Shown: piece after piece, positions 33,239-53,746 of the stretch
Layout of the letters: the number at the start of each line of letters is the position of its first letter
How positions within the stretch are numbered: the first letter of the stretch is position 1
Virus record (IMG/VR): IMGVR_UViG_2974521666_000001
Length of the DNA stretch: 64,000 nt
DNA from: a virus
Reading direction: 5' to 3' (one strand)
Made by a program: the position numbers and the translations under genes
The notes under the pieces: generated by a model
Told to the model about the DNA's origin: nothing
The model's database searches: none
What the model saw: the letters and a program-made list of their open reading frames with translations, nothing else

Positions 33239-33246
33239 CAGGGCGA

Positions 33247-34263: not shown

Positions 34264-34278
34264 CCCCAAAGCAGGGCA

Positions 34279-34320
34279 GGGTGACTGGCAGACATCAGGG
34301 TTCGAGTCCCTGACACCCAC
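34279..34320 (+). ncRNA. tRNA-like minihelix element 7
   Basis: GGGTG-ACTGGCAGACAT-CAGGG-TTCGAGT-CCCTG-A-CACCC-AC, then hairpin 34324-34342. Confidence 0.6.
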
Positions 34321-34363
34321 AAAGCCGTAGGCGTTCTACGGCCTAGCAAGAGAGGATGGAACA

Positions 34364-34597
34364 ATGCCGCTACCAAGGGGGTTCAAGTTCATACGCTGCC
34401 CCGAATGCAAACGCAAAGGTGTGTCATGTAGATTCAGCGGGCGAACCGGGGAGGACTACTGGCAATGCCGCTACTGCAGCTGGTACTGCTATGCAGGAGG
34501 GGAGGACCGGATTGACGTTGAGCGTCGACGAGCACTTGCTGCAGCCAATCCCGGTGAGCCTATATGGGTTACAGCACTGGACGATGACACACTGTAA
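34364..34597 (+). CDS. Zinc-ribbon-like small protein (77 aa)
   Basis: CPEC ... CRYCSWYC; AGAGAGGATGGAACAATG start context. Confidence 0.45.
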   Translation: MPLPRGFKFIRCPECKRKGVSCRFSGRTGEDYWQCRYCSWYCYAGGEDRIDVERRRALAAANPGEPIWVTALDDDTL

Positions 34598-34603
34598 CGG
34601 CAA

Positions 34604-34645
34604 GCCTGACTGGAAGGCACCGACGTTCAAGCCGTCGGCTGGCGC
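34604..34645 (+). ncRNA. Degenerate member of the minihelix family (T-arm-like hairpin CCGACG-TTCAAGC-CGTCGG preceded by a GACTGGAAGGCA linker)
   Basis: The linker resembles GACTGGCAGACA of the other elements, but no acceptor-like pairing is found. Confidence 0.25.
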
Positions 34646-34685
34646 GGGGTGAGCCACTATGGCTTACTACAAGAAAGGGGATGGA

Positions 34686-35051
34686 ATGAAGCACGTTATC
34701 GCTATTTCAGGCAATGACCTTGCGTACCTTCGCAAGGCAGCCTTGTCGGCGTTTCAAGAGGCCGGTCAGATTGGCGTACTACGCATTTACATTACCGATG
34801 ACGGTAAGCTCATGTTTGGAGCACGGGGTCACGTAACCAAAGTGATTGGTAGGCCCATTAAGGCTTCCGATGAAGAGCGCGAAATGGGTTTGAGTGCCCC
34901 AAGCGGAAATCCGTACGCCAACATTGACGACGATGAAGATGCGCAAGATGCTGCTGAGGCAGTAGGCCTCTCGCTTGAAGAACGTGTTGCACACCTGGAG
35001 GAACTGGTCAAGGGCGAGAACATCGTTGTGATCAACCTCTCAAAGTCCTAG
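34686..35051 (+). CDS. Hypothetical protein (121 aa)
   Basis: AAAGGGGATGGAATG start context. Confidence 0.4.
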   Translation: MKHVIAISGNDLAYLRKAALSAFQEAGQIGVLRIYITDDGKLMFGARGHVTKVIGRPIKASDEEREMGLSAPSGNPYANIDDDEDAQDAAEAVGLSLEERVAHLEELVKGENIVVINLSKS

Positions 35052-35063
35052 CAGCGCTAGGCA

Positions 35064-35108
35064 GCCGGCCACGGTTGGTTAATAGTGGTTCGAGTCCACT
35101 ACCGGCAC
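35064..35108 (+). ncRNA. tRNA-like minihelix element 8
   Basis: GCCGG-CCACGGTTGGTTAA-TAGTGG-TTCGAGT-CCACTA-CCGGC-AC, then hairpin 35111-35129. Confidence 0.55.
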
Positions 35109-35153
35109 GAAGGCAACAACCCGTTGCCTTACATCAAGATTCGAGGATGGAAC

Positions 35154-35555
35154 ATGAAACGTAATGTGAAAGAAGTCGTGGTTGCATTTCTTGTGACCAT
35201 GGGCCTGTTCTTCGCTCTCGCAGCAATCCACAACGCCGCCGTAACCAATGTGGCCAAGGCAGATCCAGGCGTTGGCTGCGAGACAATTCGTTGGGGTTTC
35301 CTAGGAAGCCAAAGGCGCACCATCTGCGACGGGCCGCGCAGGCCTGACGGCAGCTGGGAGCGTTTGCGTCTGATCTGGACGCCAGCGGGTTACGTGCCAC
35401 GCTACACCTACTGCGGTAGCTACTCATGCTCTTCCAGCGGTGGCTACTACCGGGAGGAGACGCTTCAGGGCAAGGAAACGTATGTGGTGTTTGACCACAA
35501 CGTGCTGCCCGATGAGCCGGGTTGGCTGCCACCGGGAACGGACATTATCCGATGA
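35154..35555 (+). CDS. Secreted or exported protein with an N-terminal signal/transmembrane segment and several Cys (133 aa)
   Basis: MKRNVKEVVVAFLVTMGLFFALAAIHNAAVTNVAKADPGVG; TCGAGGATGGAACATG start context. Confidence 0.45.
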   Translation: MKRNVKEVVVAFLVTMGLFFALAAIHNAAVTNVAKADPGVGCETIRWGFLGSQRRTICDGPRRPDGSWERLRLIWTPAGYVPRYTYCGSYSCSSSGGYYREETLQGKETYVVFDHNVLPDEPGWLPPGTDIIR

Positions 35556-35734
35556 GAGACTGCAGCGAGCATGGAACCAATAGCAACGTATGCGATTTCG
35601 CCGGCTGCTTTGGCCCGGCAAAACCGTACCGTTGCATCTGCGGTGACTTCAAAACGGATTCCCCGAGAGTGCTAGACGTGCATATCCTCTGGGCGAATAA
35701 GTTCAGAGCCAATGTGGAGCACGGCTGGCCGTAG
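35552..35734 (+). CDS. Cys-rich small protein (60 aa)
   Basis: ATG overlaps the upstream stop (ATGA). Confidence 0.35.
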   Translation: MRDCSEHGTNSNVCDFAGCFGPAKPYRCICGDFKTDSPRVLDVHILWANKFRANVEHGWP

Positions 35735-35742
35735 CCACAAGA

Positions 35743-35784
35743 GCCGCAATGGCATACACCCAGGTTCGAGTCCTGGGGCGGCAC
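35743..35784 (+). ncRNA. tRNA-like minihelix element 9
   Basis: GCCGC-AATGGCATACA-CCCAGG-TTCGAGT-CCTGGG-GCGGC-AC. Confidence 0.55.
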
Positions 35785-35828
35785 GAGTCCTGAGCAATCG
35801 GCTTGGGGCACTATGAAAGAGGATGGAA

Positions 35829-36050
35829 ATGCGAGTAGCAGATGCAGTGAGGAAGACCTCTGGCATTCATCGGCTCAAGGTGGGCGAGATGTTCACCGAC
35901 GCAGATGGTGATTGGGAGGTGACCAGAGAGCCTGTGGTTGATGGCGATTGGGTCGTCGTGTACCTGAGGCCCGTGCCCTTTCACGAGGGCCAGCGCGCTA
36001 GGGCCTACCGATATCCCTTGTCAACTCAGGTGAAGATGCTGCGTAAGTAA
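35829..36050 (+). CDS. Hypothetical protein (73 aa)
   Basis: AAAGAGGATGGAAATG start context. Confidence 0.45.
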   Translation: MRVADAVRKTSGIHRLKVGEMFTDADGDWEVTREPVVDGDWVVVYLRPVPFHEGQRARAYRYPLSTQVKMLRK

Positions 36051-36094
36051 AGCACTCTGCTGTGGCTACGGGGATTGTGCCAAGTAGAGAGATA

Positions 36095-36161
36095 CCCTGC
36101 AACGGTTTTGGCGTGTTCGAGGGTTACACACCAACAGAGGTTCGATTCCTCTGGCAGGGAC
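36095..36161 (+). ncRNA. tRNA-like minihelix element 10 (long linker)
   Basis: CCCTGC, then a 34-nt linker beginning AACGGTTTTGG, then CAGAGG-TTCGATT-CCTCTG-GCAGGG-AC. Confidence 0.45.
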
Positions 36162-36202
36162 GACGGTGGGCCACCAGGTCTACCGAACGAAAGGGGATGG
36201 AA

Positions 36203-36619
36203 ATGCGTACGTTTACCTTTGGGACCCAGTATGTCCCAGAGACAAAGGCAGTCCTGAAGTGGGGCAAGTACGCCGACGGCAGCACTGCACTACGTGTTGT
36301 GTCGGAGTACGGTGAGCCTCTGGCTACGGCCACAGTCTGCCTGCGCAACTACAACCTTCAGCCGGGTAAAGGCAATGTCTTCATCTACGGGGACTACAGC
36401 GAACATGTCGGAGTGTTCGAGGCCCTGCGGAAGGCCGGGATTGTCGGTGACCCTGTGAACCGAATTCCCATGGGAGGCTTTGGCGCTTTCGCGTACGAGG
36501 CTCCCCTGCTGTGGAGCGAGCACGAGCCAACCTGTGAGGGTATGGCAGACGTGGACTACCACACCCAAGTTGATGCCATGCTCGAACGAGTGGCACAGCA
36601 AGACAACAAGTCCCAGTAG
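36203..36619 (+). CDS. Hypothetical protein (138 aa)
   Basis: AAAGGGGATGGAAATG start context. Confidence 0.45.
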   Translation: MRTFTFGTQYVPETKAVLKWGKYADGSTALRVVSEYGEPLATATVCLRNYNLQPGKGNVFIYGDYSEHVGVFEALRKAGIVGDPVNRIPMGGFGAFAYEAPLLWSEHEPTCEGMADVDYHTQVDAMLERVAQQDNKSQ

Positions 36620-36627
36620 ACTGGGCA

Positions 36628-36669
36628 GCCCGAAAGGCATACACGCTGGTTCGAGTCCAGCGCGGGCAC
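36628..36669 (+). ncRNA. tRNA-like minihelix element 11
   Basis: GCCCG-AAAGGCATACA-CGCTGG-TTCGAGT-CCAGCG-CGGGC-AC, then hairpin 36673-36685. Confidence 0.55.
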
Positions 36670-36709
36670 GAGCGCCATAGTGGCGTATCAAGAAAGGGGA
36701 TGGACTGAG

Positions 36710-36916
36710 TTGCATAGAGAAACGGAATTCGTGCTCGCCCGCGAGCTCAGCGATGGCAGCCTACCTCACATGCCACCGGCAGATGAGCTGCCACATCGTG
36801 GCCGAATCACAAGGATTCTCAACGACTCTGGGGTGTTGACAATCGAGTGTGAGGACGGTATGCTCAGCCGAGGGATGAACGCCCCGGTTGAACGGTACAA
36901 GAGGGAGGCTCAGTGA
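36710..36916 (+). CDS. Hypothetical protein (68 aa)
   Basis: AAAGGGGATGGACTGAGTTG start context (TTG start). Confidence 0.35.
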   Translation: MHRETEFVLARELSDGSLPHMPPADELPHRGRITRILNDSGVLTIECEDGMLSRGMNAPVERYKREAQ

Positions 36917-37050
36917 ACAAACTGCGGAAGTTGTTGCGAGCCTACAGAGTTTCGCAGCACAGACGCCGGCTGAATGACGAAGCCCATATCGCTTGGGCCA
37001 GATCACTACTGGCAGAACGTGAACGACCGGTAGACTAGTACAGCACAGGA

Positions 37051-37092
37051 GTCCGACTGGCAGACATCAGGGTTCGAGTCCCTGACGGACAC
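37051..37092 (+). ncRNA. tRNA-like minihelix element 12
   Basis: GTCCG-ACTGGCAGACAT-CAGGG-TTCGAGT-CCCTG-A-CGGAC-AC, then 7-bp hairpin 37095-37120. Confidence 0.6.
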
Positions 37093-37148
37093 GACTTGGA
37101 GCCACGAGGGAGACTCCAAGCACCACAACAGAAAGAGGATGGGAAACA

Positions 37149-40391: not shown

Positions 40392-42152
40392 GTGCCACAA
40401 TCAGACCTCGGAGTTGCCCTTCACAGTAGGCCGTTCCAGCTAGCAGGCGCACGGTTTGCCATGCGACATAAGAACGTACTGATTGCCGATGAACCTGGAC
40501 TCGGTAAGACCATCCAGGCCATTGCAGCTGTAACAGGTAACAAGACTACGGGTTCCGTGCTGATTGTGGCACCCAAAACCGCTGCGTACGTAACATGGCC
40601 AGCTGAGCTACGGCGCTGGTTACACGATCTTGCACCAGATGACCCTGTGCGTATCATCACCGGCAATGCAGACAAGCGTACTCGCATAGCGTTGCTACGA
40701 GATACGGTCAAGTGGGAGACCTCCAGCCAGCGCGCGGGCCAACGCCAGTGGGTTATCGTATCTCCTAACTACTTACGCTTCAAGATTGAGTGCGATGACA
40801 AGGGGCGCTACGTCCATGACGACAAGGGCAACAAGATCATCACCCCGGTACGTGAGGCCCTGAAGCCTCTGCTGTACATACAGTGGGCTGCCGTGATTGT
40901 TGACGAGGCCCACGAAACCCTAGCTGGTGCTACGGGAAACTTGAAGAAGCAAAGTGCTCAGAGCAGAGGCCTACGTCTGCTTGACATTCGTGAAGACGGA
41001 ATGCGACTTGCGTTGTCTGGCACGCCCTTTCGTGGTAAGCACGAGAACATCTGGGGCATCCTCAACTGGATTGACCCTGTGGAGTACAACGCCAATGGTG
41101 GCCCTAACTCTTACTGGAAGTGGGTCTACAGGTACTTCCAGGTCTACCACGACGACGTATTCGATACGGACGTTATCGGAAAGCTGCGCAGTGAACGCGA
41201 CTTGCGAGCTGCATTAAAGCCGTACATGATTCGGCGCACCAAGAAGAAAGTGCTACCGGAGCTACCGGATAAGCAATACGGTGGCACACCGCTGTACCCA
41301 AAGAAGAAGCCTCCCAAAGAGCTACTGGACGCCGTAGCCCGCGCTGCGGAGGAGCAGAAGGCCAATCCCAAGGCAAGGCTAGGTTACCGGAAGGCACAAG
41401 CCAAGCTGGCTGGGTGGTACGACAAGAACAACCCCGTTGCAGTATGGCTTCCGATGGACGGCAAGCAACGTACAGCCTACAACCAGATGAAGACCCAGGC
41501 CATGGCCAACATCGAAGGTGGTACGCTGCTAGCCAATTCGTTGTTGGCTGAGATGACAAGGCTTAAGCAGTTTGCGAATAGCTATGGGAGACTAGACGAA
41601 CAGGGCAATTACCACCCTGATATGCCCTCGAACAAATTCGACTGGATACTCCAGTTCCTTAATGAGAGAGGCATTTACGGCCCAGAACCAAGCGGCAACA
41701 GGATCATCATTGCATCCCAGTTCACTAAGCACATCAACCTGTTTGCGCAAGTCTTGTTAGAACAGTACAAGATACCGAATTACAAGATCACCGGTGCCAC
41801 CAGTGCAGATGAGAGACTACGGATTCAAGAGGAATTCCAGTCTGGGCAGACGCCGGCTGGTAAGCCGAGTCCGGAAGTGTTGCTACTGAATACGAAAGCT
41901 GGTGGCGTGGGCATCACCCTGGATGCTGCCGACGACATGATCGTGGTGGACAGTACCCACAACGTGGATGATCAAGTGCAACTAGAAGATCGGATTCACC
42001 GCATCTCCAGGATACATAGCGTTACTATCTGGAACCTTGTTACCAAGGGTACTATCGACGAGAAGATCTTACGAGCCACCCGTAAGACGGGCCGTAGTCT
42101 TAAGCGTATCTTGGACACACCAGAGGCAGCTAAGGACTTATTGGAGAGCTGA
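40392..42152 (+). CDS. SNF2/RAD54-family helicase (DEAD/DEAH box plus helicase C-terminal domain)
   Basis: LIADEPGLGKTIQAIA (motif I), VIVDEAHETL (motif II, DEAH), and C-terminal helicase motifs. Confidence 0.7.
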   Translation: MPQSDLGVALHSRPFQLAGARFAMRHKNVLIADEPGLGKTIQAIAAVTGNKTTGSVLIVAPKTAAYVTWPAELRRWLHDLAPDDPVRIITGNADKRTRIALLRDTVKWETSSQRAGQRQWVIVSPNYLRFKIECDDKGRYVHDDKGNKIITPVREALKPLLYIQWAAVIVDEAHETLAGATGNLKKQSAQSRGLRLLDIREDGMRLALSGTPFRGKHENIWGILNWIDPVEYNANGGPNSYWKWVYRYFQVYHDDVFDTDVIGKLRSERDLRAALKPYMIRRTKKKVLPELPDKQYGGTPLYPKKKPPKELLDAVARAAEEQKANPKARLGYRKAQAKLAGWYDKNNPVAVWLPMDGKQRTAYNQMKTQAMANIEGGTLLANSLLAEMTRLKQFANSYGRLDEQGNYHPDMPSNKFDWILQFLNERGIYGPEPSGNRIIIASQFTKHINLFAQVLLEQYKIPNYKITGATSADERLRIQEEFQSGQTPAGKPSPEVLLLNTKAGGVGITLDAADDMIVVDSTHNVDDQVQLEDRIHRISRIHSVTIWNLVTKGTIDEKILRATRKTGRSLKRILDTPEAAKDLLES

Positions 42153-42154: not shown

Positions 42155-42457
42155 ATGACGTGCTTCTTACTTACAGTAGGTTCTGGCCTCTTGGGCATCG
42201 TCGCAGGTAGTTGGGTCACGTGGCGTGTGAACGAGCGGCTCTTTAATCGTCTGCAGGCCCGTCGGGCCACCCTGGAGCTGATCAGGGAACTGGAAAACCG
42301 TAGAGTCGCAACGGAATCCGACCGTGAGCACCTTGTGCGGGCCAGGGCCGGAGCACCAGCGCGTGTCAACGACGGGATGACTACTAAGCCAGGCACGCTC
42401 GCCCGGTACCTGCGTGATACAGCTGCTGCTAACAAATTCGCCCCGAAACGGGGTTGA
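42155..42457 (+). CDS. Hypothetical protein with an N-terminal transmembrane helix (100 aa)
   Basis: ATG overlaps the upstream stop. Confidence 0.35.
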   Translation: MTCFLLTVGSGLLGIVAGSWVTWRVNERLFNRLQARRATLELIRELENRRVATESDREHLVRARAGAPARVNDGMTTKPGTLARYLRDTAAANKFAPKRG

Positions 42458-42538: not shown

Positions 42539-42988
42539 ATGACTGTTGAGACGACCGAAAAGACGGGCCGTGGCGGCGCTCGTGGACCTCGTGTGTTCAA
42601 GGACACGCCGACTCCCCGCGACCGGGTGATCAGTGAGTCGTTGGCCGACAAGGTCAAAGAGCTCACCGGCAAGACCATTTCGCCGGAGGACTGCCGCGCC
42701 GTCAAGTTCAGTCTCTCTCGGTGGTACGAAGACCCTGCCACCAAGGAACTGCTGAACGACATGGACGCTCAGCTCAAGAAGGCCAAGGCCAAGGAGAAGG
42801 CCGAGAAGGCCCGCAAGCTCCTGGAAGAGGCCCAGCGGGAGCTGGAAGACGCTGAGGAAGACGACGATTCGGACGACGCGTCGGACGAGGACACCCAGGC
42901 CGCTGCTGCGGACGAGGACGACGAGGACGACGAGGACTCGTTGTTCGACGACGAGGACGAGGACGACAAGGTCAGCGCGACCTTCTGA
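42539..42988 (+). CDS. Hypothetical protein with a highly acidic C-terminal tail (149 aa)
   Basis: AAAGGGAAGAGACACAACATG start context; DEDDEDDEDSLFDDEDEDD tail. Confidence 0.35.
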   Translation: MTVETTEKTGRGGARGPRVFKDTPTPRDRVISESLADKVKELTGKTISPEDCRAVKFSLSRWYEDPATKELLNDMDAQLKKAKAKEKAEKARKLLEEAQRELEDAEEDDDSDDASDEDTQAAAADEDDEDDEDSLFDDEDEDDKVSATF

Positions 42989-44151
42989 TCCGGTCCTCTA
43001 GGGCAGCTACCGAATTGGGGATTAAGTAGCCCCACTACCATCCTCTGGTGAAGAAGATTGCACGGCCTCCCCGTACAGCCACGCAATGTCTCCCCAGTTC
43101 GGTAGCTCTAAAGGGTAGAGAGACATCGACACTCAGCACGTATTGAGTAGCCCCTCGGCAAGCTGAAAACGTCTGTCTCTCTACTCCTTAGGGCAGGACC
43201 TGCCCTCCAGTGACCGGGGTACGCACCAGCGAAGAGTCAAGTACAGTCCCTCCAAGCCTGGAAGACCCAGTAGCACAGAGCCTCTGCCCCGGTACACGGG
43301 AATTGTTCTTACACAGTTGAATATACTTCGAGCCTGATCGATAGGCAGTAGCAATGCTGCTGAAAGGCCGGTTGATCCCCGGTCGCCTAGTAATCCTAGG
43401 TAACTCAGGCAATCCAGTACCTTCGCCCATCTGAACGGTGGTGGGACGCAGGCAAGCAGAGCGGGCCAGGCCGATACGGTGAGGCCAGTCGTGTACGCAG
43501 CGACTCAAACGCTATAAGCTGCAAGCCTGATGGTTGGTACATGGGAGGGATACATAGTGCGAGTAGGCATACAAGTGCGGTATCCATGGAGGCCCCAAGG
43601 CGTGGTTGGCGAATCACGTAGGAGCTGAAGAGCACAAGTAGCGGGCACGTGAAAGTGCGATGGCGTGGTGCATTCTGTGGCTCAAAAGGCGACGGAACAC
43701 CTGGGGCAGCACGTCGTCAGATCGTATGGCCTGGTCTCCCTAAGGGACCACCAAAGCGCTCAGGCAAGAGCACTACCATTGGGAGGTAGCAACGGTGTAA
43801 AAGCCGTTTCCGGTTCGACTCCGGCAAAGCAAAAGTCTGTCCCCGCTAGCAACGAAAGTACCCTAATCCCTAGGGCTTACGCCAACTAGGGCACCGGAAG
43901 GCTCGCAAGGCCGACTGGTGTTGCTAGACAAAGTAGTGCAGGTAGGGGGAGGCCACCCCTGACCGAATCGAAACGTCAGCGAGTAGTTCGCTAGTGTAGG
44001 TAGTGGTTCCGCCAATCAAACGGGACCGGGTACGGTGGCTGCAAGTGGGAGCTTGCGGACAAGGAACTAACACATAAGGTTCTGAAAGGCCACTGGGATT
44101 AGGGTCAAGTCTACGCCCTTTCCACCCCTAACAACAAGAGGATGGTAACTC
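42989..44151 (+). other. 1.16-kb non-coding, lower-GC, highly structured region (candidate large structured non-coding RNA or replication/packaging element)
   Basis: No plausible ORF on either strand; many local hairpins (GGGCAGGACCTGCCC, CCTAGTAATCCTAGG, GGTCTCCCTAAGGGACC and others). Confidence 0.4.
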
Positions 44152-45321
44152 ATGGATAACGTTCCGTTGCTACGCAACTCAGAACGGCACGACTTCAAGC
44201 GATGCCCCTTGCGCTGGTGGTGGCGCTATGGCGAGCACCTCGTGCCTGTCAACTTCTCTACTGGCCCACTGGTTTTCGGAAGCCTTGGCCACCTTGCCCT
44301 AGCAGAGCACTACATTCCAGGCCGCAAGCGTGGAATCGACCCACGCGAGACCTGGGACAAGATTACCCAAGAGCTATGGGACTCAGTCAAAGTCGAAAAG
44401 TTCGTCGACGACGAGATTGAGGGTACTTGGGAGGACGCCCGCGTGCTGGGCCACGAAATGCTCGGGCACTACCTGGAACACTACGGCAATGACGAGCACT
44501 GGGAAGTCCTGTGGACAGAAGACCAGTTCCACCAACGTATTCCACACCCTGATGACCTACGCAAGCAGGCCAAGAGACCTCGCCCCATTGTGGAATACGT
44601 AGGGACCATAGACCTGATCGTTCGGAATCACATCACAGGTCTGATCGAGTACGTGGACCACAAGTTCATGAAAACCATAGAGGTAGATCACCTTTACATT
44701 GATGACCAGAACGGTGGTTACCTTGCCATCGGCACACACGAGCTGCGAAAAAGGGGGCTGATTGGGCCTCGAGAGTCAGTTCGTGTGCTGGTCTACAACT
44801 TCCTGCGCAAGGCTAAGCCGGACCAAAGGCCCCGTAACGCTGATGGCAAGTACACCAACCTTCCTACCAAGGAAGACTACGTCAAAGCCATTCAGGCATA
44901 CCTAGACCAGCGTGGCAAAGGCGATATCGGAGACTACATCTCCTCGAGGGCCAAGAAAGAAGAATACGAATCCCTTGCTAGGGGATTGAATTTGGTTGTG
45001 CTGGGCGAGGTCTCTAAGAGTCAGCCTGCCCCGTACTTCCACCGGGAGCGCATTGAGCGCACCAATGCCGAACGCAACGTACAGATCAAGCGCATCGGCC
45101 AAGAGGCTTTGGTTATGGAGCAGTTCAGGTCTCGCCGGCTGCCCATCTACAAGACACCAACACGTGACTGCAAATGGGACTGTAGCTTTTTCGACCTCTG
45201 CCAGATCCACGAAAGCGGTGGAGACGTAGAGTTTGCCAAGAGCCACATGTTCCGCAAAGAAGACCCGTACCAAGAGTACTACTCTGGTGCAGAGTCACCG
45301 AAACTGTTGCGCGACAGGTAG
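44152..45321 (+). CDS. RecB/Cas4-family PD-(D/E)xK exonuclease with a 4-Cys cluster
   Basis: IDLIVRN ... IEYVDHKF (D ... E-x-K), an N-terminal Cys, and C-terminal CKWDCSFFDLC; AAGAGGATGGTAACTCATG start context. Confidence 0.55.
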   Translation: MDNVPLLRNSERHDFKRCPLRWWWRYGEHLVPVNFSTGPLVFGSLGHLALAEHYIPGRKRGIDPRETWDKITQELWDSVKVEKFVDDEIEGTWEDARVLGHEMLGHYLEHYGNDEHWEVLWTEDQFHQRIPHPDDLRKQAKRPRPIVEYVGTIDLIVRNHITGLIEYVDHKFMKTIEVDHLYIDDQNGGYLAIGTHELRKRGLIGPRESVRVLVYNFLRKAKPDQRPRNADGKYTNLPTKEDYVKAIQAYLDQRGKGDIGDYISSRAKKEEYESLARGLNLVVLGEVSKSQPAPYFHRERIERTNAERNVQIKRIGQEALVMEQFRSRRLPIYKTPTRDCKWDCSFFDLCQIHESGGDVEFAKSHMFRKEDPYQEYYSGAESPKLLRDR

Positions 45322-45418: not shown

Positions 45419-46249
45419 ATGCCGACATGGGATGAAGCTGTACAGGATCCAGATATCGTTGCGTTGGATGCCATTTCGCCGCACCCAAACTTTATGGTCT
45501 ACGGGGCCTCTGGCTGTGGTAAGACGGTGCTGGGAGGCAGCGACGACAAGGTGCTGTTCCTCACGTGTGAGCCAGAGGGTTGCATCAGTGCAAAGCGCAT
45601 GGGCAGCAATGCAAGACAGGTGATCATCCATCATTGGGACCAGCTGGAAGAGTGGTACGACAAGCTATCCGAGTGGGCCGAGGACGGCACCGGCATCCCG
45701 TTCAACTGGATCGTGATCGATACCATTAGTGACGCACAGGGATTGTTGTTCGACAAGCTGCTGGATGAGAAGGGCCTGGACGTAGAGGACTGGCCCACCT
45801 ACCGCAAGAACCAGAAGATACTGCTACGCTACGTCAAGAAGATGAACCAGCTGCCGGTCAACCTGCTCTGGTTGGCATGGGACCGTAAGGAAACCGACGC
45901 CGACGGTGAGGACTTCTTCTGCCCTGAGATTCACGGCAAGGGCTACTCCATTGCAATGCAAGTGGCAGCACAGATGACCTCGTACGGTTACATGCAGGTT
46001 CGCACCGAGCGCAAGCAGGTGATGAAAGACGGTAAGGCAGTAGTCAATCCGAAGACTAAGAAGCCACGCACAACACTAGAGACACATCGCTATATATACT
46101 GGCAGGACATTCAAAGCTTGAGAGGCAAGGACCGAACGATGGCGCTGGCCCCGTTCACAAAGGACTTGACTCTCAGAGACATTCGCCTGAAGGTTGAAAA
46201 GGCCTTTGCCGGCGAAGCTGAGAAAACCGATGAGAAAGTAGGGAACTGA
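45419..46249 (+). CDS. RecA-like AAA ATPase (Sak4-type recombination/annealing ATPase)
   Basis: Walker A VYGASGCGKT and Walker B-like WIVIDTISD. Confidence 0.55.
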   Translation: MPTWDEAVQDPDIVALDAISPHPNFMVYGASGCGKTVLGGSDDKVLFLTCEPEGCISAKRMGSNARQVIIHHWDQLEEWYDKLSEWAEDGTGIPFNWIVIDTISDAQGLLFDKLLDEKGLDVEDWPTYRKNQKILLRYVKKMNQLPVNLLWLAWDRKETDADGEDFFCPEIHGKGYSIAMQVAAQMTSYGYMQVRTERKQVMKDGKAVVNPKTKKPRTTLETHRYIYWQDIQSLRGKDRTMALAPFTKDLTLRDIRLKVEKAFAGEAEKTDEKVGN

Positions 46250-48355: not shown

Positions 48356-50664
48356 CGAAACCTGTACTGTCAGAGCAGGAGACTGAGAAACTCTTCAAGT
48401 TCTGGCTTGCCGAGGGGTTCAAGTTCCGTAGGCGCACTAGCAAAGAGATGCAGGCCGAACCTAAGAAGTACCAAGAGCGCCTGCGCATGGAATTCGGCGT
48501 AATCCGTAGCGTACCAGGGTATATCGACTACTTTCTCATGGTGAGCGACTTGGTGCGTTGGGCCAAAGACAATGGCATTCTAGTGGGTCCAGGCCGTGGT
48601 AGTGCAGCCGGCAGTCTGTGTTGCTGGCTTTTGCGTATCACCGAGATTGACCCACTGCTGTACCCCATGCTCTTTGAGCGGTTCCTGGACCCTACGCGTA
48701 CAGACCCTCCAGATATCGATATCGACTTTGAGGACGAGAGGCGTTGGGAGGTTATTCAATACGCCCAGGAAAAGTACGGATACGATAGGGTTGCTAACAT
48801 TCTGACGTTCACCCGGTACAAGGGCAAGAACAGCCTGGATGACGTAGCGCGCGTATACGAAATCCCAGAGTGGAAGATTGAGAACATCAAGGGTAAGCTG
48901 GTGGAGCGGCAAGACGGCCACCCACGGTTCTCCATGACACTGCTTGACACCTTCGATAGCTACGACGACGTTGCCGAAACAGTTAGGCGTACACCTGAAT
49001 TGCAGTACGCGCCACGGCTGGAGGGCATCAACGGGCAGTCCAACTACCGTACGGCCGGTATCCACCCCGCTGGCATTGTGATCAGTGGCGTACCGTTGAC
49101 TCAGATTACAGCCACCTACGAAAAGCAGAGTGGTGCCCAGCGCGGAAGCGGCGTTGCGTACGACAAGAAAGACAGTGAGTACCTAGGTCTTCTGAAGGTT
49201 GACTTCCTTAGCCTAACTACGCTTACCGGCATCCGAGCGACACTAGAACACCTACAGTGGGTGCGTGACCGAATCGGCATGACTATCGAGGAGTTCTACC
49301 AGATACCACTAGATGACCCTAAGGTTTTCGAGGCGTTTCGCGCTGGTGACGTATTGGGCATATTCCAGTTTGAGGGTGTGGCAACACGGCGCGTGCTCAA
49401 AGGCGTACAGCCAGATAAGTTTATGGACCTGGTAGACGTAAACGCACTGAGCCGCCCTGGTGGCGACGATACGGCGTACATCAAGGCCAAGAGCACAGGC
49501 CAGCTGCCAGAGCCGGTCCACCCCACAGTTGATGACCACATCCAATGGACCTGGGGCACTATCGTTTACCAGGAACAGATTCTTCTAATCCTTAGGGACT
49601 TTGGAGGATTCGCGCCGGCTGAGGTCAACCGCATTAGGAAGATCATCTCGGCCAAGGAAGACTCAAGTGTCTTCAACGAGTTCCTCGAAAGGTTCGTGGA
49701 AGGTGCTGCGTCTCACGGCGTTTCACGCGAGAAGGCCGTGGGTGTGTGGCAGAAGATGGTCAACGCTACAGGGTACGCGTTCAACATCAGTCACGCTGTG
49801 TGTTATAGCGATACGGCCTACCGTCAGATGTGGCTTAAGGTGTACTACCCTGAGTTCTACCTAGGGCAGCTACTCAAGTGTCCCGACACAGCAGAAGGCT
49901 TGGAGCGCCGTAGGAAGTTGATCGTGGAGGCCGAACGCAAGGGTATTAAGGTCAATAGCCTGGATCTGCATGAGTCACAGGCAGGCTGGAGCTTGCGCGG
50001 CGGCAGCCTGTACGCTGGCTTTACAGCCGTGAAGGGCATTGGCCTCAAGACCGCTGAGAAGATTGTCCAGTGGCGTGATGAACACAAAACAGAGGCTCTT
50101 GAGTGGTCTAGCCTTACAGCCGTTTCTGGCATTGGTGACGGCAGAGTAAAAGTGATGCGCCAGTTCGCAGAAGACGATGACCCGTTTGGCGTGCTGGCCA
50201 CCAAACGCCTACTTGATAGCATACGTAGGGAATTTGAGGCAGGCAAATTTCCTGGTGTTCCAGAGCCGACGCACGTCAGCATCGACATTGTGGAAGAAGA
50301 TGAGTACGTAGTCTTTATGGGCGTGCTGCGCAAGAAGACCTACAAAGACACTGTGCAGCAGCGTCTTAAGTACGGGGGAGACGGCCTCACCCGAGAGAAA
50401 ATCCTAGAGGAGCTAGATGAACCGCACCTACTGAAGTACGCAACCCTGGACGTTGACGACGAGTACGACGAGCCAATACGCTTGCGGGTGAGCCGGAAGA
50501 AGTACCCACAGTACGCCGGTCTGATTGCCAACGCCCGCGCTGGTGTGGACGTAATCCTGGTGACAGGCTACGTGACTCACTTTGGAGGCTTGGCCATTCA
50601 GGTCAAGGAACTAATCGTAATCAATCCGGAAGAGGATGAAACACAGGATGACTTATCGTTCTGA
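48352..50664 (+). CDS. dnaE: DNA polymerase III alpha subunit (DnaE), polymerase-core fragment of the split gene
   Basis: YFLMVSDLVRWAKDNGILVGPGRGSAAGSLCCWLLRITEIDPL (Pol III alpha palm signature), followed by finger and HhH regions. Confidence 0.8.
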   Translation: MTKPVLSEQETEKLFKFWLAEGFKFRRRTSKEMQAEPKKYQERLRMEFGVIRSVPGYIDYFLMVSDLVRWAKDNGILVGPGRGSAAGSLCCWLLRITEIDPLLYPMLFERFLDPTRTDPPDIDIDFEDERRWEVIQYAQEKYGYDRVANILTFTRYKGKNSLDDVARVYEIPEWKIENIKGKLVERQDGHPRFSMTLLDTFDSYDDVAETVRRTPELQYAPRLEGINGQSNYRTAGIHPAGIVISGVPLTQITATYEKQSGAQRGSGVAYDKKDSEYLGLLKVDFLSLTTLTGIRATLEHLQWVRDRIGMTIEEFYQIPLDDPKVFEAFRAGDVLGIFQFEGVATRRVLKGVQPDKFMDLVDVNALSRPGGDDTAYIKAKSTGQLPEPVHPTVDDHIQWTWGTIVYQEQILLILRDFGGFAPAEVNRIRKIISAKEDSSVFNEFLERFVEGAASHGVSREKAVGVWQKMVNATGYAFNISHAVCYSDTAYRQMWLKVYYPEFYLGQLLKCPDTAEGLERRRKLIVEAERKGIKVNSLDLHESQAGWSLRGGSLYAGFTAVKGIGLKTAEKIVQWRDEHKTEALEWSSLTAVSGIGDGRVKVMRQFAEDDDPFGVLATKRLLDSIRREFEAGKFPGVPEPTHVSIDIVEEDEYVVFMGVLRKKTYKDTVQQRLKYGGDGLTREKILEELDEPHLLKYATLDVDDEYDEPIRLRVSRKKYPQYAGLIANARAGVDVILVTGYVTHFGGLAIQVKELIVINPEEDETQDDLSF

Positions 50665-51163
50665 AGTAGTAGACAAGGCATTTCAGAAGGCCCTTGAGAC
50701 ACTACGCGGCTGGGAGAACGTTCACAGCGCCGTTGTGGACTTTGGCCTGGGGGACAGTGCCTCTCGAGAGCTGCCCCACGACAAGGTAGTGACAGATAAC
50801 GTACCGCTTGACGACGGGGCAAACGCTATCGGCAGCTACGTTGTTGGCACGGCACCGGTCCATGAGATCGTTCACCCCTTTGACGACCGGATACAGGGTG
50901 CTCGTATCTACAAGAGCGAAGGGAAGCATAGGGTCCTATTGGATCTGGACTGCCCACACGTGTACGTTCCCAGCAGCACACCGGGCCACGGGCACTTGAT
51001 CATTGATGTGCCACAGGACTGGAACACCTACAAGCGCTTGCTGCAGCTGTTGGGAGACATGGGGATTCTTCAGTACGGCTACGTGGACGCCAGCTTCAAG
51101 CGGGAGGAAACGTGGCTCCGAGCACCTGGAGTGCCCAAGAGCCAAGGAGGTATGGGCCTGTGA
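50648..51163 (+). CDS. Hypothetical protein (171 aa)
   Basis: GAGGATGAAACACAGGATG start context overlapping the dnaE end. Confidence 0.35.
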   Translation: MTYRSEVVDKAFQKALETLRGWENVHSAVVDFGLGDSASRELPHDKVVTDNVPLDDGANAIGSYVVGTAPVHEIVHPFDDRIQGARIYKSEGKHRVLLDLDCPHVYVPSSTPGHGHLIIDVPQDWNTYKRLLQLLGDMGILQYGYVDASFKREETWLRAPGVPKSQGGMGL

Positions 51164-52164
51164 ACGACGCAGACACACTCATCAGCACGACCTTGACACA
51201 CGTCATGAACCAAGGCATGTACATTGCAACCGAGAAGGATTCGTCTTGGGAGCTATGCGACTACCAAACAATTCCCATGACAGACATCAGGTCTCGTATC
51301 TTCACCAACCCTAACAGGCCATTGAACATCGTGACGGCCGTAGCTCGCTTCACCTGGTTGATGGCGGGCAACAATCGTGTTGAGGACATAGCGTTTTACG
51401 AGCCGAAAGTCCGCAACTTCAGTGACGACAAGCTCACCGTTCCTGGAAGTGATTACGGCCTTAGGATCTTCCAGCCACGACCGGGCCTGAACCAGATCGA
51501 GGGAGTCGTTGAGCGGCTACGCCATTCACCGTACTCCAGACAGGCAGCTGCGGTTGTGTGGCAACCGGAAGACGCTGTGCGCCAAAGTGGGGATATCCCT
51601 TGCACATTCGGTATGTTCTTCAGGCTCAGGCCCTGCCCTGACGGGGAGCACGCCTACGCGTTGCACATGACCACAGTCATGAGGTCCAATAACGCTTTCC
51701 GTATCCTGCCTTTCAACGTGTTTGAGTTCACGATGCTGCACGAGCTGGTGGCTGCTGAACTTGGTGTGGGCCTAGGGAGCTACAAGGTGTGGGCTGCCTC
51801 GATGCACGCGTACGACAACCCACGCGAAACGCCTGCCACGAGGGCTATTGCGGATGGTGAAGTGTTCAAGAGCATTAGGATGGACCCTATGCCTCAGCGA
51901 GATGGTTCACCCCTTGGCACAGACCCGTTGGTGTGCGCACGGCACTTGGCCATACTGGAGGCTAGCCTACGGCACGCCTGTGACGAAGACGAATACGGCA
52001 GTATCGTTTTGGAGGCCTTCAATGTGCTGCCCAATTACTGGCTTGACCTGTTTGGCGTGCTTGCAGCCTGGGGTGCGGCCAAGCGTAACTGGGGACCACA
52101 GTACAGCATGATTAGCAACAGCGAACTACGGGACCTAACGGCAGCTGTCTGCCAGAAAGTGTAA
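51160..52164 (+). CDS. Thymidylate-synthase-family (ThyA-like) pyrimidine C5-modifying enzyme, divergent
   Basis: Alignable to ThyA: SPYSRQAAAVVWQ (DSRRIIVSAWN region), catalytic-Cys segment DIPCTFGMFF, VMRSNNAF..LPFNVFEF (RSxD..PFNIASY region; Asn retained, Asp replaced by Asn), SMHAYDN (DTHLY). GTG start after AAGGAGG. Confidence 0.6.
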   Translation: MNDADTLISTTLTHVMNQGMYIATEKDSSWELCDYQTIPMTDIRSRIFTNPNRPLNIVTAVARFTWLMAGNNRVEDIAFYEPKVRNFSDDKLTVPGSDYGLRIFQPRPGLNQIEGVVERLRHSPYSRQAAAVVWQPEDAVRQSGDIPCTFGMFFRLRPCPDGEHAYALHMTTVMRSNNAFRILPFNVFEFTMLHELVAAELGVGLGSYKVWAASMHAYDNPRETPATRAIADGEVFKSIRMDPMPQRDGSPLGTDPLVCARHLAILEASLRHACDEDEYGSIVLEAFNVLPNYWLDLFGVLAAWGAAKRNWGPQYSMISNSELRDLTAAVCQKV

Positions 52165-53739: not shown

Positions 53740-53746
53740 GCCGGTG

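What the first reader, a model, noticed from the sequence alone, without database searches (positions are those of the whole stretch)
42989..44151. 1.16-kb ORF-free, lower-GC, hairpin-dense region between the acidic-tail gene and the Cas4-like nuclease gene
Coding density elsewhere is above 90%, yet this stretch has no credible ORF on either strand. It is visibly less GC-rich and is full of local inverted repeats (GGGCAGGACCTGCCC, CCTAGTAATCCTAGG, GGTCTCCCTAAGGGACC, CCGGTTCGACTCCGG, GGGGATTAAGTAGCCCC). It ends with the AAGAGGATGG box of the next gene. Candidates are a large structured non-coding RNA (the GOLLD- or ROOL-type RNAs are phage-associated and often tRNA-adjacent), a replication origin, or a packaging/recombination site.
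Basis: seen in the sequence. Interest (0 to 1): 0.6.

Follow-up and report, generated by a model that had tools for sequence, protein, structure and literature searches.

The report
GOLLD giant RNA in mycobacteriophage Send513
The gene-free 1.16-kb stretch of this mycobacteriophage encodes a GOLLD RNA, a known giant phage RNA that builds RNA-only nanocages, placed behind an older structured leader; this copy is already in a published alignment, so it is confirmed but not new.

Summary
The window is Mycobacterium phage Send513 (Cluster R); the gap lies between gp68 and the Cas4-like exonuclease gp69.

Rfam finds one hit above the gathering score in the whole window: GOLLD (RF02032) at 43658-44118 (+), 180.4 bits, E 4e-49. 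Of 92 consensus pairs present, 85 are canonical and 36 are compensatory against the consensus.

This copy is already listed in Supplementary File S3 of Kretsch et al. 2025 (Nature), so the core finding is known. GenBank records leave it unannotated.

The gap is composite:
- 42989-43191: a two-stem leader with an invariant CCAUCCUC loop. It is also present, with covariation, in five related phage lineages that lack GOLLD.
- 43192-43657: the probable lineage-specific GOLLD 5' domain. This is inferred.
- 43658-44118: the conserved 3' domain. Its interior linker holds a tRNA-like module without an acceptor stem.
- 44119-44151: spacer and ribosome-binding site.

The gap varies 2.6-fold less than third codon positions. 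All nine indels among 11 genomes fall inside it, and all shift the frame. It is therefore constrained and non-coding.

The "lower GC" claim is wrong (0.561 against 0.559 for the window). The origin, packaging-site and ROOL readings are not supported.

In passing: 13 covarying tRNA-like minihelices, mostly between genes at 31-37 kb, in a phage with no tRNA genes.

The parts
42989..43191 (+). Structured leader upstream of the exonuclease gene. It predates the GOLLD insertion and is not part of GOLLD.
   Evidence: The same two-stem fold is predicted in Send513, IMG/VR L031, MrMiyagi, Fowlmouth, Cuke and Indlulamithi. RNAalifold gives 33 pairs, 10 with two-sided compensatory changes. The five relatives have no GOLLD, three by Rfam and two by gap size. 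Variability is 1.45 per 100 nt against 5.66 at third codon positions, with no indels.
43005..43107 (+). Leader stem 1 (arms 43005-43021 and 43091-43107). It encloses a loop with the invariant CCATCCTC (43038-43045).
   Evidence: A U-G pair fits only the + strand. CCATCCTC is invariant in all six lineages. ACCATCCTCT (43037-43046) is the exact reverse complement of AGAGGATGGT (44137-44146).
43108..43191 (+). Leader stem 2 (arms 43108-43125 and 43174-43191). It starts directly after stem 1 and holds a variable insert.
   Evidence: Compensatory changes are seen between lineages, for example TTGTGGGGC/GTCCCACAA in MrMiyagi against TTGCAGGGC/GTCCTGCAA in Indlulamithi.
43192..43657 (+). Probable GOLLD 5' domain (about 466 nt, specific to this lineage). 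This is inferred.
   Evidence: It is present only where the 3' domain is present; syntenic relatives have gaps of 168-286 nt. Its size fits known 5' domains (420 nt in env-38). Variability of 2.16 per 100 nt equals that of the 3' domain and is below third codon positions (p=0.0013). Frameshifting indels are tolerated. Three of four substitutions at paired positions are C->U opposite G. Against: z is only -1.10, and it has no similarity to any other GOLLD locus.
43658..44118 (+). GOLLD conserved 3' domain (Rfam RF02032, full model 1-416).
   Evidence: 180.4 bits against a gathering score of 150, E 4.4e-49. 85 of 92 consensus pairs are canonical and 36 are two-sided against the consensus; 99 of 131 highly conserved nucleotides match. 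All six Cluster R substitutions at paired sites keep the pair. MFE z is -2.89. It is listed as JF704112.1:51205-51666 in the GOLLD alignment of Kretsch et al. 2025.
43658..43719 (+). First hairpin of the 3' domain (P14), with the A-rich loop UCAAAAG at 43682-43688.
   Evidence: alignment. In env-38 the loop adenines A447 and A448 make inter-subunit bridge B6.
43720..43825 (+). Variable linker (J13/15), which faces the cage interior in solved GOLLD structures. It holds a hairpin (43733-43749) and a tRNA-like module.
   Evidence: This is the insert region of the Rfam alignment.
43758..43824 (+). tRNA-like module without an acceptor stem: D-like arm 43758-43771, anticodon-like arm 43773-43789 (loop AUUGGGA, UGG), long variable-like arm 43791-43808, and T-arm 43810-43824 (loop UUCGACU).
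   Evidence: The four hairpins appear in this order in both the MFE and the centroid fold. ARAGORN does not call it, even relaxed, and the Rfam tRNA model does not hit at E<=10. The T-arm is conserved, with compensatory stem changes, in Cluster M GOLLDs: GAGG/CCTC against CCGG/CCGG. In the same four phages a 1-nt deletion (43807) and a 1-nt insertion (43825) flank the T-arm.
43826..43838 (+). Invariant GOLLD core strand AAAGCAAAAGUCU.
43900..43959 (+). Two hairpin loops that form symmetric inter-subunit kissing contacts in env-38: CGCAA (L21a) in 43900-43912 and GGCCA (L21b) in 43945-43959.
   Evidence: G656-C657 and G675-C676 of env-38 were mapped onto the Rfam consensus. The mapping is approximate because the supplement text is lossy.
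44119..44151 (+). Spacer and ribosome-binding box (GAGGATGG, 44138-44145) of the exonuclease gene, whose ATG is at 44152.
   Evidence: Two 1-nt indels occur here among Cluster R phages.

Best explanation
The gap holds two RNA elements, both read from the + strand as part of the transcript of the replication/recombination gene block.

1. Leader, 42989-43191. Two long adjoining helices with an invariant CCAUCCUC loop. This is an older feature of the junction between the gp68-like gene and the exonuclease gene, and related phages that have no GOLLD also carry it.

2. GOLLD, about 43192-44120 (some 930 nt), inserted between the leader and the exonuclease ribosome-binding site. It has a lineage-specific 5' domain (about 466 nt) and the conserved 3' domain (461 nt).

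By analogy with the solved GOLLD structures, the RNA folds into two domains and assembles without protein into a closed cage of 10-14 copies. The 3' domains form the ring, the 5' domains form the caps and set the copy number, and the J13/15 linker points inwards. In Send513 that linker carries a tRNA-like module that lacks an acceptor stem. It therefore cannot be released and charged as a tRNA. More likely it is a tethered structural or decoy element held inside the cage.

Shown here: family membership of the 3' domain, purifying constraint over the whole gap, absence of coding, the + strand as the functional strand, and the separate ancestry of the leader.

Inferred: that 43192-43657 is the GOLLD 5' domain, that the RNA is expressed and processed, and that it forms a cage.

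Unknown, for this RNA as for the whole family: what the cage does.
For: - Family: the Rfam GOLLD hit is above the gathering score, covers the full model and is on the + strand only.
- Structure: 85 of 92 consensus pairs are canonical, 36 are compensatory against the consensus, and 99 of 131 conserved nucleotides match.
- Published listing: the same coordinates appear in the GOLLD alignment of Kretsch et al. 2025.
- Conservation: the gap is present in all 11 Cluster R genomes at >=98.8% identity.
- Constraint: variability per 100 nt is 1.45 (leader), 2.16 (5' part) and 2.17 (3' domain), against 5.66 at third codon positions (p = 0.007, 0.0013, 0.0013).
- Pair-preserving change: all six substitutions at paired 3'-domain sites keep the pair, including G-C to A-U in Papyrus.
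- Non-coding: all nine indels are frameshifting and confined to 43321-44125. No protein family matches any gap ORF.
- Insertion: syntenic relatives MrMiyagi, Indlulamithi and L031 have gaps of 168-286 nt and no GOLLD.
- Leader: the fold is shared by six lineages, with 10 compensatory pairs.
- Cage contacts: the bridge motifs of the env-38 cage (UCAAAAG, CGCAA, GC-containing loop) are retained.
- Linker: it faces the cage interior and can hold tRNAs. A real tRNA sits in the linker of GOLLD locus L006.
Against: - The 5' domain is assigned indirectly. Alone it does not fold better than shuffles (z -1.10). It has no detectable similarity to any other GOLLD locus. No curated model of GOLLD 5' domains exists. 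The only 5'-3' contact in the solved structure is an A-minor contact, which leaves no covariation to test.
- No promoter or terminator brackets the RNA, so its ends are unknown.
- There are no expression data for any Cluster R phage.
- Cage formation is extrapolated from two other GOLLDs of very different sequence and GC content.
- One consensus hairpin (6 pairs) is deleted and 7 pairs are non-canonical.
- Send513 has no tRNA genes, unlike the usual GOLLD setting.
Confidence: 0.8

Rival explanations
1. Only 43658-44118 is GOLLD. The 466 nt upstream (43192-43657) are a separate element: another unclassified non-coding RNA, a long structured 5' UTR, or sequence carried along with the insertion. 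In that case the phage would make a '3'-domain-only' GOLLD.
For: The segment alone gives no significant folding signal and has no similarity to other GOLLD loci. A GOLLD 3' domain on its own assembles into decamers in vitro, so a 5' domain is not strictly needed. Cluster M phages leave only about 260-330 nt between a tRNA and their 3' domain.
Against: The segment is as constrained as the 3' domain. It is absent wherever the 3' domain is absent. It adjoins the 3' domain with no boundary signal. Its size fits known 5' domains, which are described as variable between GOLLDs.
Confidence: 0.15
2. The region acts at the DNA level, as a replication origin or a packaging/recombination site. These were the first reader's alternatives.
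For: It is a long non-coding stretch inside the replication/recombination gene block, and it is rich in inverted repeats.
Against: - There are no iterons or repeated boxes. The direct repeats found are short two-copy chance matches.
- There is no AT-rich block, and GC equals the window mean.
- Cumulative GC skew rises steadily with no inflection.
- Substitutions keep G-U-compatible pairing only on the + strand. The + strand folds 17 kcal/mol better than the - strand.
- The sequence scores as an RNA family with 36 compensatory pairs.
- Close syntenic relatives replicate without it.
Confidence: 0.03
3. The gap holds small protein genes, as annotated in phage JIND1 (five 'hypothetical proteins').
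For: ORFs of 30-106 aa exist on both strands. One GenBank record annotates five of them.
Against: - No ORF matches Pfam or PHROGs.
- The other listed Cluster R records annotate nothing under the match.
- 1-2 nt indels hit the longest ORFs in otherwise near-identical genomes, and there are none in real genes.
- Substitutions show no third-position excess and instead preserve RNA pairs.
- Several of the ORFs run against the transcription direction of the whole block.
Confidence: 0.02

Closest known systems
GOLLD RNA env-38 (marine metagenome; cryo-EM 14-mer, PDB 9MEE; Kretsch et al. 2025, PMC12286853)
   Same: Same Rfam family. The 3' domain has the same helices, the pseudoknot strand AAAGCAAAAGUCU, the A-rich first-hairpin loop and the CGCAA loop. 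Both have a two-domain layout with an interior variable linker, and similar total length (833 nt against about 930 nt).
   Different: Send513 is GC-rich (0.56-0.57). One consensus hairpin is missing. Its linker is 106 nt and carries a tRNA-like module, where env-38 has a 42-nt disordered loop. Its 5' domain shows no sequence similarity. It is not next to a tRNA gene, whereas env-38 lies downstream of tRNA-Met. Oligomer state is unknown.
Mycobacterial tRNA-array GOLLDs (M. aubagnense, M. abscessus M24 and others; Behra 2019 PMC6582537; Morgado 2020, cited in PMC12990946)
   Same: Actinobacterial, GC-rich GOLLDs with a tRNA or pseudo-tRNA embedded in the linker.
   Different: Those sit inside arrays of 30 or more tRNA genes on bacterial chromosomes or plasmids, and the insert is reported as tRNA-Phe or a pseudo-tRNA. 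Send513's GOLLD sits in a lytic phage with no tRNA genes, between replication genes, and its insert has a UGG loop and no acceptor stem. I could not read Morgado 2020, so the overlap with its phage data is unknown.
Cluster M mycobacteriophage GOLLD (PegLeg, LilhomieP; IMG/VR L039, L043)
   Same: Same host genus and the same family (206-216 bits). The T-loop hairpin (UUCGACU) is fused in the same way to the AAAGCAAAAG core, with compensatory stem changes.
   Different: The Cluster M copy lies inside a tRNA/tmRNA array, has a shorter linker (only a remnant anticodon-like hairpin plus the T-arm) and has at most about 260-330 nt for a 5' domain. There is no similarity outside the conserved 3' core.
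Streptococcus agalactiae GOLLD (cryo-EM; 3' domain decamer 9LMF, full-length dodecamer 9L0R; summarised in PMC12990946)
   Same: It shows that the 3' domain alone can assemble and that the 5' domain caps the cage and fixes the copy number. That is the basis for the roles proposed here.
   Different: It is 700 nt and lacks several helices, including P21b. It is Firmicute and AT-rich.
ROOL RNA (RF03087-type phage nanocage RNA)
   Same: A large ornate phage-associated RNA that also forms cages and is often near tRNAs.
   Different: It is an unrelated fold. There is no Rfam hit in the gap, even at E<=10.
RNase III processing sites between phage T7 early genes (from my own knowledge, not tested)
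   Same: The leader has two long, near-perfect, adjoining helices between cistrons of one transcript, which resembles double-stranded processing signals.
   Different: There is no cleavage evidence here, and the invariant CCAUCCUC loop has no counterpart in those sites. This is a lead only.

Membership tests
GOLLD RNA (Rfam RF02032) | Covariance-model score at or above the curated gathering score (150 bits), over the full model | tested here: met
   180.4 bits, E 4.4e-49, model positions 1-416 of 416, + strand, not truncated.
GOLLD RNA (Rfam RF02032) | Conserved 3'-domain secondary structure, including the long-range pseudoknot helix | tested here: met
   Of 98 consensus pairs, 6 are deleted (one hairpin). 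85 of the remaining 92 are canonical; 41 are identical to the consensus, 8 are one-sided and 36 are two-sided changes. Cluster R substitutions at six paired sites all keep the pair.
GOLLD RNA (Rfam RF02032) | Highly conserved single-stranded and loop nucleotides (AAAGCAAAAGUCU, GAAAG, CUAAU, CGCAA, GAGUAG, UCAAAAG) | tested here: met
   99 of 131 upper-case consensus positions match. All the named motifs were located.
GOLLD RNA (Rfam RF02032) | A variable 5' domain of several hundred nt adjoining the 3' domain | tested here: inconclusive
   466 nt are available, are as constrained as the 3' domain and were co-inserted with it. However, z is -1.10, there is no homology to other 5' domains and no curated model exists.
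GOLLD RNA (Rfam RF02032) | A variable linker after the first 3'-domain hairpin, sometimes holding a tRNA | tested here: met
   A 106-nt insert lies at the model's linker position, with tRNA-like arms. For comparison, there is a real tRNA in the linker of L006.
GOLLD RNA (Rfam RF02032) | Phage or prophage setting, commonly next to tRNA genes (typical, not strictly defining) | tested here: inconclusive
   Phage setting: yes. tRNA genes: none in the window, and none reported for Cluster R phage Candle. An array of tRNA-like minihelices lies 6-12 kb upstream.
GOLLD RNA (Rfam RF02032) | Protein-free assembly into a closed cage of many copies | not testable with these tools
   Only indirect evidence: loops that make inter-subunit bridges B6, B8 and B9 in env-38 are retained.
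GOLLD RNA (Rfam RF02032) | Expression as a stable RNA during lytic growth | not testable with these tools
   No transcript data for Cluster R phages were found. Expression in other GOLLD hosts is reported.
tRNA gene (for the linker insert 43758-43824) | A 7-bp acceptor stem closing the cloverleaf, with detection by tRNA finders | tested here: not met
   No complementary 5' strand exists; the T-arm runs straight into the GOLLD core. ARAGORN finds nothing, by default or relaxed. The Rfam tRNA model finds nothing at E<=10.
tRNA gene (for the linker insert 43758-43824) | T-arm with a GTTCRANYC loop, a 7-nt anticodon loop with U33, and a D-arm with GG | tested here: met
   CCGG-UUCGACU-CCGG; CUACC-AUUGGGA-GGUAG; GCUC-AGGCAA-GAGC. 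All are predicted in both the MFE and the centroid fold. It works like part of a tRNA but is not a tRNA gene.
   No hit in 42800-44300 even at E<=10. No hit in the whole window at the gathering score.
Replication origin or packaging site | Iterons or repeated protein-binding boxes, an AT-rich unwinding block, a strand-skew inflection | tested here: not met
   Only short two-copy chance repeats. GC equals the window mean. Cumulative skew is monotonic.

The most novel reading that the evidence does not exclude
Cluster R phages may run a system based on tRNA mimicry. In this reading the GOLLD cage holds 10-14 tethered copies of an acceptor-less tRNA(Pro-UGG)-like module. These could act as a decoy or sponge for a host factor that recognises tRNA, such as an anticodon nuclease, a modification enzyme or the ribosome. 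The same genome uses 13 covarying acceptor/T-arm minihelices as RNase P/Z-type processing marks in front of genes that carry the GAGGAUGG box. The ancient leader's invariant CCAUCCUC loop could pair with those boxes. Together these would give GOLLD, whose function is unknown, a concrete role in a phage that can be engineered.
Probability: 0.08. Interest if true: 0.8.

Novelty: already known. Interest (0 to 1): 0.33.

Why it matters
GOLLD is one of the largest structured bacterial and phage RNAs. It has been known since 2009, and since 2025 it is known to build RNA-only nanocages, but its function is still unknown.

The Send513 copy adds no new kind of RNA. Its value is practical:
- It sits in a lytic, sequenced, easily grown Mycobacterium smegmatis phage, a group for which genome engineering (BRED) is routine (from my own knowledge).
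- Ten sequenced phage isolates, plus one metagenomic contig, keep it under constraint.
- Close syntenic relatives (MrMiyagi, Fowlmouth, Cuke, Indlulamithi) lack it naturally.

That set makes deletion, swap and complementation experiments on GOLLD function straightforward.

The analysis also corrects annotation. GenBank records either leave the RNA unannotated or, in JIND1, cover it with five spurious ORFs. It also separates an older conserved leader from the GOLLD insertion.

Tried and rejected
- **tRNA in the gap.** ARAGORN, by default and relaxed to 70-90% thresholds, gave only noise and never called the linker insert on the + strand.
- **Promoter and terminator scan.** Nothing inside the gap, so the RNA ends stay undefined.
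- **Relatives of the 5' part by sequence.**
  - blastn of the whole gap against phages finds only Cluster R, and against plasmids finds nothing.
  - Sensitive local blastn against 70+ fetched loci finds nothing for 43196-43657.
- **Inter-domain covariation.** I hoped the L20-J13/15 kissing loop linked the 5' and 3' domains. The supplement shows both partners lie in the 3' region (C618-G546), and the only 5'-3' contact is A-minor. The test is not possible.
- **Numbering env-38 residues.** The supplement text loses characters (815 nt instead of 833). Only local mapping was possible, and only three bridge motifs were placed with confidence.
- **T-loop fused to the core as a general GOLLD subtype.**
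  - The pattern GGTTCGANTCC-N(1-6)-AAAGCAAAAG hit 8 viral and 31 metagenomic loci.
  - I scanned 30 of those 39 pattern loci with Rfam. Apart from the Cluster R contig, only the two Cluster M-like loci (L039, L043) carry GOLLD.
  - The rest are about what chance predicts for a 20-nt motif in a collection of that size, by my own rough estimate. The idea is rejected; the fusion is seen only in mycobacteriophage-type GOLLDs.
- **Target-site duplication at the insertion boundaries.** None found.
- **Leader loop as a local anti-RBS.**
  - The complementarity is a perfect 10 nt in Send513 and 7 nt in L031.
  - The exonuclease genes of MrMiyagi and Indlulamithi lack the box while keeping the loop.
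  - Simple local sequestration is therefore not supported.
- **Papers not held.** Morgado 2020 and Weinberg 2009 could not be read.
Full report
**1. Identity of the window.**
The 1163-nt gap is 100% identical to Mycobacterium phage Send513 (JF704112 / NC_042033, Cluster R, genus Papyrusvirus), record positions 50536-51698.
- Nine further Cluster R phages carry it at 98.8-99.5% identity. The GenBank records listed annotate nothing under the match except JIND1, which places five 'hypothetical proteins' on it.
- The flanking genes run on the + strand:

| Gene | Window coordinates | What it is |
|---|---|---|
| gp66 | 40392-42152 | SNF2 helicase |
| gp67 | 42155-42457 | small gene |
| gp68 | 42539-42988 | acidic tail; PHROG label only, no Pfam match |
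| gp69 | 44152-45321 | PD-(D/E)XK Cas4-like nuclease |
| gp70 | 45419-46249 | AAA_24 / Sak4-like protein |

- This is a replication/recombination module.

**2. Checking the observation.**
- *Lack of ORFs: real.* The longest stop-free stretch is 107 aa, against a median of 250 aa for other windows of the same size.
- *'Lower GC': not real.* The gap is 0.5606 GC and the window 0.5593. The gap only looks poorer next to the 0.60-0.63 GC acidic-tail gene.
- *'Hairpin-dense': true only in part* (MFE z-scores against shuffles):

| Segment | z |
|---|---|
| 3' domain, 43658-44118 | -2.89 |
| 42989-43657 | -3.13 |
| 43192-43657 alone | -1.10 (10 of 100 shuffles as good) |

  The -3.13 signal comes from two very stable leader stems.

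**3. What it is.**
- An Rfam scan of the whole window at gathering thresholds returns one hit: GOLLD (RF02032) at 43658-44118, + strand, 180.4 bits (threshold 150), E 4.4e-49, full model.
- A permissive scan of the gap (E<=10) adds only noise. There is no ROOL, HEARO, tmRNA, intron or tRNA.
- I transcribed the alignment into explicit pairs:
  - Of 98 consensus pairs, 6 are deleted (one hairpin) and 85 of the other 92 are canonical.
  - 36 of those differ from the consensus on both sides.
  - 99 of 131 highly conserved nucleotides match.
- Within Cluster R, all six substitutions at paired positions keep the pair. One is a complete G-C to A-U switch in Papyrus at 44064/44082.
- Membership of the 3' domain is therefore secure.

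**4. Novelty.**
- Supplementary File S3 of Kretsch et al. 2025 (Nature 643:1135, PMC12286853) is a GOLLD alignment built by cmsearch over public phage genomes.
- It lists 'JF704112.1:51205-51666 Mycobacterium phage Send513', which is window 43658-44119.
- It also lists Papyrus, Candle, Rope, Nilo, Zenon, Riparian and Weiss13.
- The instance is therefore catalogued, though I saw no discussion of it in the main-text passages I read, and only for the span of the Rfam model.
- GOLLD in mycobacteria and its embedded pseudo-tRNA are also published (PMC6582537; Morgado 2020 as cited in PMC12990946).

**5. The gap is composite.**
- The closest syntenic relatives found through the exonuclease protein are IMG/VR contig L031 (59% identity), MrMiyagi (53%) and Indlulamithi (50%). 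Fowlmouth and Cuke were found through the MrMiyagi intergenic DNA.
- All keep the order helicase, small gene, gp68-like gene, exonuclease. Their gaps at this junction are only 168-286 nt.
- Rfam finds no GOLLD in the three loci scanned. It finds GOLLD at 216 bits in the positive controls PegLeg and LilhomieP.
- The short gaps of the relatives resemble the first ~200 nt of the Send513 gap:
  - All six lineages fold into the same two adjoining long helices. In Send513 these are 43005-43021/43091-43107 and 43108-43125/43174-43191.
  - The first helix encloses an invariant CCATCCTC.
  - RNAalifold recovers 33 pairs on its own, 10 of them with two-sided compensatory changes.
  - G-U pairs fit the + strand.
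- So 42989-43191 is an older leader, and the Cluster R-specific insertion is about 43192-44120 (about 930 nt). No target-site duplication flanks it.

**6. The 466 nt between the leader and the Rfam hit (43192-43657).**
- *Literature.* GOLLDs have a conserved 3' domain and a variable 5' domain: 420 nt in env-38 and about 325 nt in S. agalactiae.
- *For a 5' domain here:*
  - The size fits.
  - The segment occurs only together with the 3' domain.
  - It is as constrained as the 3' domain: 2.16 and 2.17 variable columns per 100 nt, against 5.66 at third codon positions of the flanking genes (Fisher p = 0.0013 each).
  - Three of four substitutions at confidently paired positions are C->U opposite G, which keeps pairing only on the + strand.
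  - The + strand folds 17 kcal/mol better than the - strand.
- *Against:*
  - No significant z-score.
  - No similarity to any other GOLLD locus.
  - No base-paired 5'-3' contact in the solved structure that could be tested by covariation.
- I rate the 5'-domain assignment at about 0.65-0.7.

**7. Coding is excluded.**
- All nine indel events in a 6.2-kb alignment of 11 genomes lie at 43321-44125, and each is 1-2 nt.
- There are none in about 4.8 kb of flanking genes.
- No gap ORF matches Pfam or PHROGs.

**8. The linker and its tRNA-like module.**
- The Rfam alignment places a 106-nt insert (43720-43825) at the variable linker, called J13/15. In both solved cages this faces the interior.
- Both the MFE and the centroid fold predict four hairpins in cloverleaf order:

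| Arm | Sequence | Coordinates |
|---|---|---|
| D-like | GCUC-AGGCAA-GAGC | 43758-43771 |
| Anticodon-like | CUACC-AUUGGGA-GGUAG (UGG) | 43773-43789 |
| Long variable-like | AACGGU-GUAAAA-GCCGUU | 43791-43808 |
| T-arm | CCGG-UUCGACU-CCGG | 43810-43824 |

- There is no acceptor stem. The T-arm runs through one C into the invariant AAAGCAAAAGUCU. Neither ARAGORN nor the Rfam tRNA model detects it.
- The T-arm is a fixed feature of mycobacteriophage GOLLDs. PegLeg and IMG/VR L039 have GAGG-UUCGACU-CCUC at the same place, so the loop is identical and the stem is compensated.
- In IMG/VR L006 a real tRNA-Gln occupies the linker, with its acceptor strand between the T-arm and the core.
- In four Cluster R phages a 1-nt deletion at 43807 and a 1-nt insertion at 43825 flank the T-arm, which keeps the linker length.
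- A search for this T-loop/core fusion in metagenomes gave mostly chance hits without GOLLD.

**9. How it most likely works.**
- *Shown:* a constrained, non-coding, + strand RNA of the GOLLD family, inserted behind an older leader.
- *Inferred from solved homologues:*
  - Two-domain folding and protein-free assembly into a cage of 10-14 copies.
  - The 3' domains form the ring and the 5' domains the caps.
  - The loops that make bridges B6 (UCAAAAG), B8 (CGCAA) and B9 (GC loop) in env-38 are kept in Send513.
- *The linker module:* it would sit inside the cage. Without an acceptor stem it cannot mature into a chargeable tRNA. So the 'stored tRNA' idea proposed for Mycolicibacterium GOLLD does not fit this copy. 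A tethered structural or decoy role fits better.
- *Unknown:* what the cage does, as for the whole family. Published proposals are encapsulation of tRNAs, ribosomes or other cargo.
- *RNA ends:* with no promoter or terminator in the gap, the RNA is probably cut out of the transcript of the gene block. The double-helical leader is a candidate processing signal. That is inference only.

**10. Rivals.** Confidence for each is given in the rival list.
- Origin or packaging site: no iterons, no AT block, no skew inflection, and strand-specific pair conservation.
- Small proteins: see section 7.
- A 3'-domain-only GOLLD plus an unrelated upstream element: this remains possible.

**11. Seen in passing.**
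- GGTTCGANTCC occurs 14 times on the + strand and never on the - strand (0.17 expected).
  - Twelve copies at 31-37 kb and one at 53.8 kb form an outer 4-5-bp stem stacked on a 6-bp T-arm. Eight of 10 pairs are compensated.
  - Nine of them lie about 40-55 nt upstream of a GAGGATGG box and a start codon. The box occurs 13 times on the + strand; on both strands together there are 16 matches against 2.3 expected.
  - No tRNA finder and no Rfam family recognises them.
- I found no description of these minihelices in the literature searches I ran.
- They look like acceptor/T-arm minihelices that could mark RNA processing sites. This is untested.

**12. Verdict.**
- The feature is a known RNA family, and this copy is already in a published alignment.
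- New here: the split into an ancestral leader and a GOLLD insertion, the evidence for constraint and non-coding status, the description of the acceptor-less tRNA-like linker module, and the fact that natural GOLLD-less syntenic relatives exist for experiments.

Noticed in passing
window 31035-37101 (12 copies; GGTTCGANTCC starts at 31070, 31420, 31959, 32345, 32781, 33267, 34299, 35087, 35763, 36139, 36648, 37071) and 53732-53797: Thirteen tRNA-like minihelices, all on the + strand, mostly between small genes. Each has an outer 4-5-bp stem stacked on a 6-bp T-arm, with about 17 nt (often ACUGGCAGACA) between them on the 5' side, usually followed by AC or CAC. Eight of 10 pairs show compensatory changes. 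The motif occurs 14 times against 0.17 expected. ARAGORN and Rfam call none of them as tRNA, and the window has no tRNA gene. They may be RNase P/Z-type processing marks. I found no description of them in the searches I ran.
   Followed up: partly
window, + strand: 30320, 31122, 31472, 32005, 32833, 33324, 34352, 35143, 35819, 37135, 38555, 44138, 57705: GAGGATGG is a fixed 8-nt box 4-9 nt before start codons. It occurs 13 times on the + strand; both strands together give 16 matches against 2.3 expected. It is longer and more uniform than a plain Shine-Dalgarno site. At nine sites a minihelix and a second hairpin precede it.
   Followed up: partly
window 43037-43046 and 44137-44146; relatives L031 2802, L033 3285, L034 3336, L035 436, L036 414: The leader loop ACCATCCTCT is the exact reverse complement of the exonuclease RBS AGAGGATGGT, about 1.1 kb downstream. 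CCATCCTC is invariant in six phage lineages, yet the exonuclease genes of MrMiyagi and Indlulamithi lack the box. The reason for the invariance is unexplained. It could pair in trans with the GAGGAUGG boxes.
   Followed up: partly
window 30199-30330: A second CCATCCTC lies about 120 nt upstream of a GAGGATGG box and a start codon, followed by two hairpins. One hairpin has a T-loop-like GAGTTCAAACTC. This sits at the start of the minihelix block. A third CCATCCTC is at 60767.
   Followed up: no
L077 (JIND1, PV477759) 2560-3619, equivalent to window ~43048-44108: Five 'hypothetical protein' CDS (32-50 aa, on both strands) are annotated on top of the leader and GOLLD. They are very likely spurious: no family match for the corresponding Send513 ORFs, and frameshifting indels occur across this stretch in sister phages.
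   Followed up: yes
L028 (PegLeg NC_021299) 2685-2828; L029 (LilhomieP) 2725-2868: A 47-aa 'hypothetical protein' is annotated just upstream of the Cluster M GOLLD 3' domain (2847-3260), where the GOLLD 5' domain should lie. It is probably not a gene. GOLLD itself is not annotated in these records.
   Followed up: no
window 42539-42988 (gp68): Some records call it 'methyltransferase', but it has no Pfam match. The name seems to come only from one PHROG label. The C-terminal third is a D/E-rich acidic tail encoded by 9-nt repeats (42902-42980).
   Followed up: partly
L033 (MrMiyagi) 3400-3440: The insert inside leader stem 2 of MrMiyagi holds a T-arm-like hairpin, GTGAGTTCGACTCTCAC, with the same UUCGACU loop as the Send513 GOLLD linker. 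MrMiyagi has no GOLLD.
   Followed up: no
window 43807 and 43825: A 1-nt deletion 5' of the linker T-arm and a 1-nt insertion 3' of it occur together in the same four phages (Weiss13, Nilo, Zenon, Riparian). Linker length is kept, which hints at a length constraint.
   Followed up: no
L006 (IMGVR_UViG_3300044699_000008) 6954-7394 (-): A GOLLD (226 bits) with a real tRNA-Gln(CTG) (55 bits) inside its linker. It is a useful comparison for the acceptor-less module of Send513.
   Followed up: partly
window ~29800-31000, ~35200-36400, ~62800-64000: Other 1163-nt windows with unusually short open frames (<=127 aa). The first two overlap the block of small genes and minihelices. The third was not examined.
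   Followed up: no
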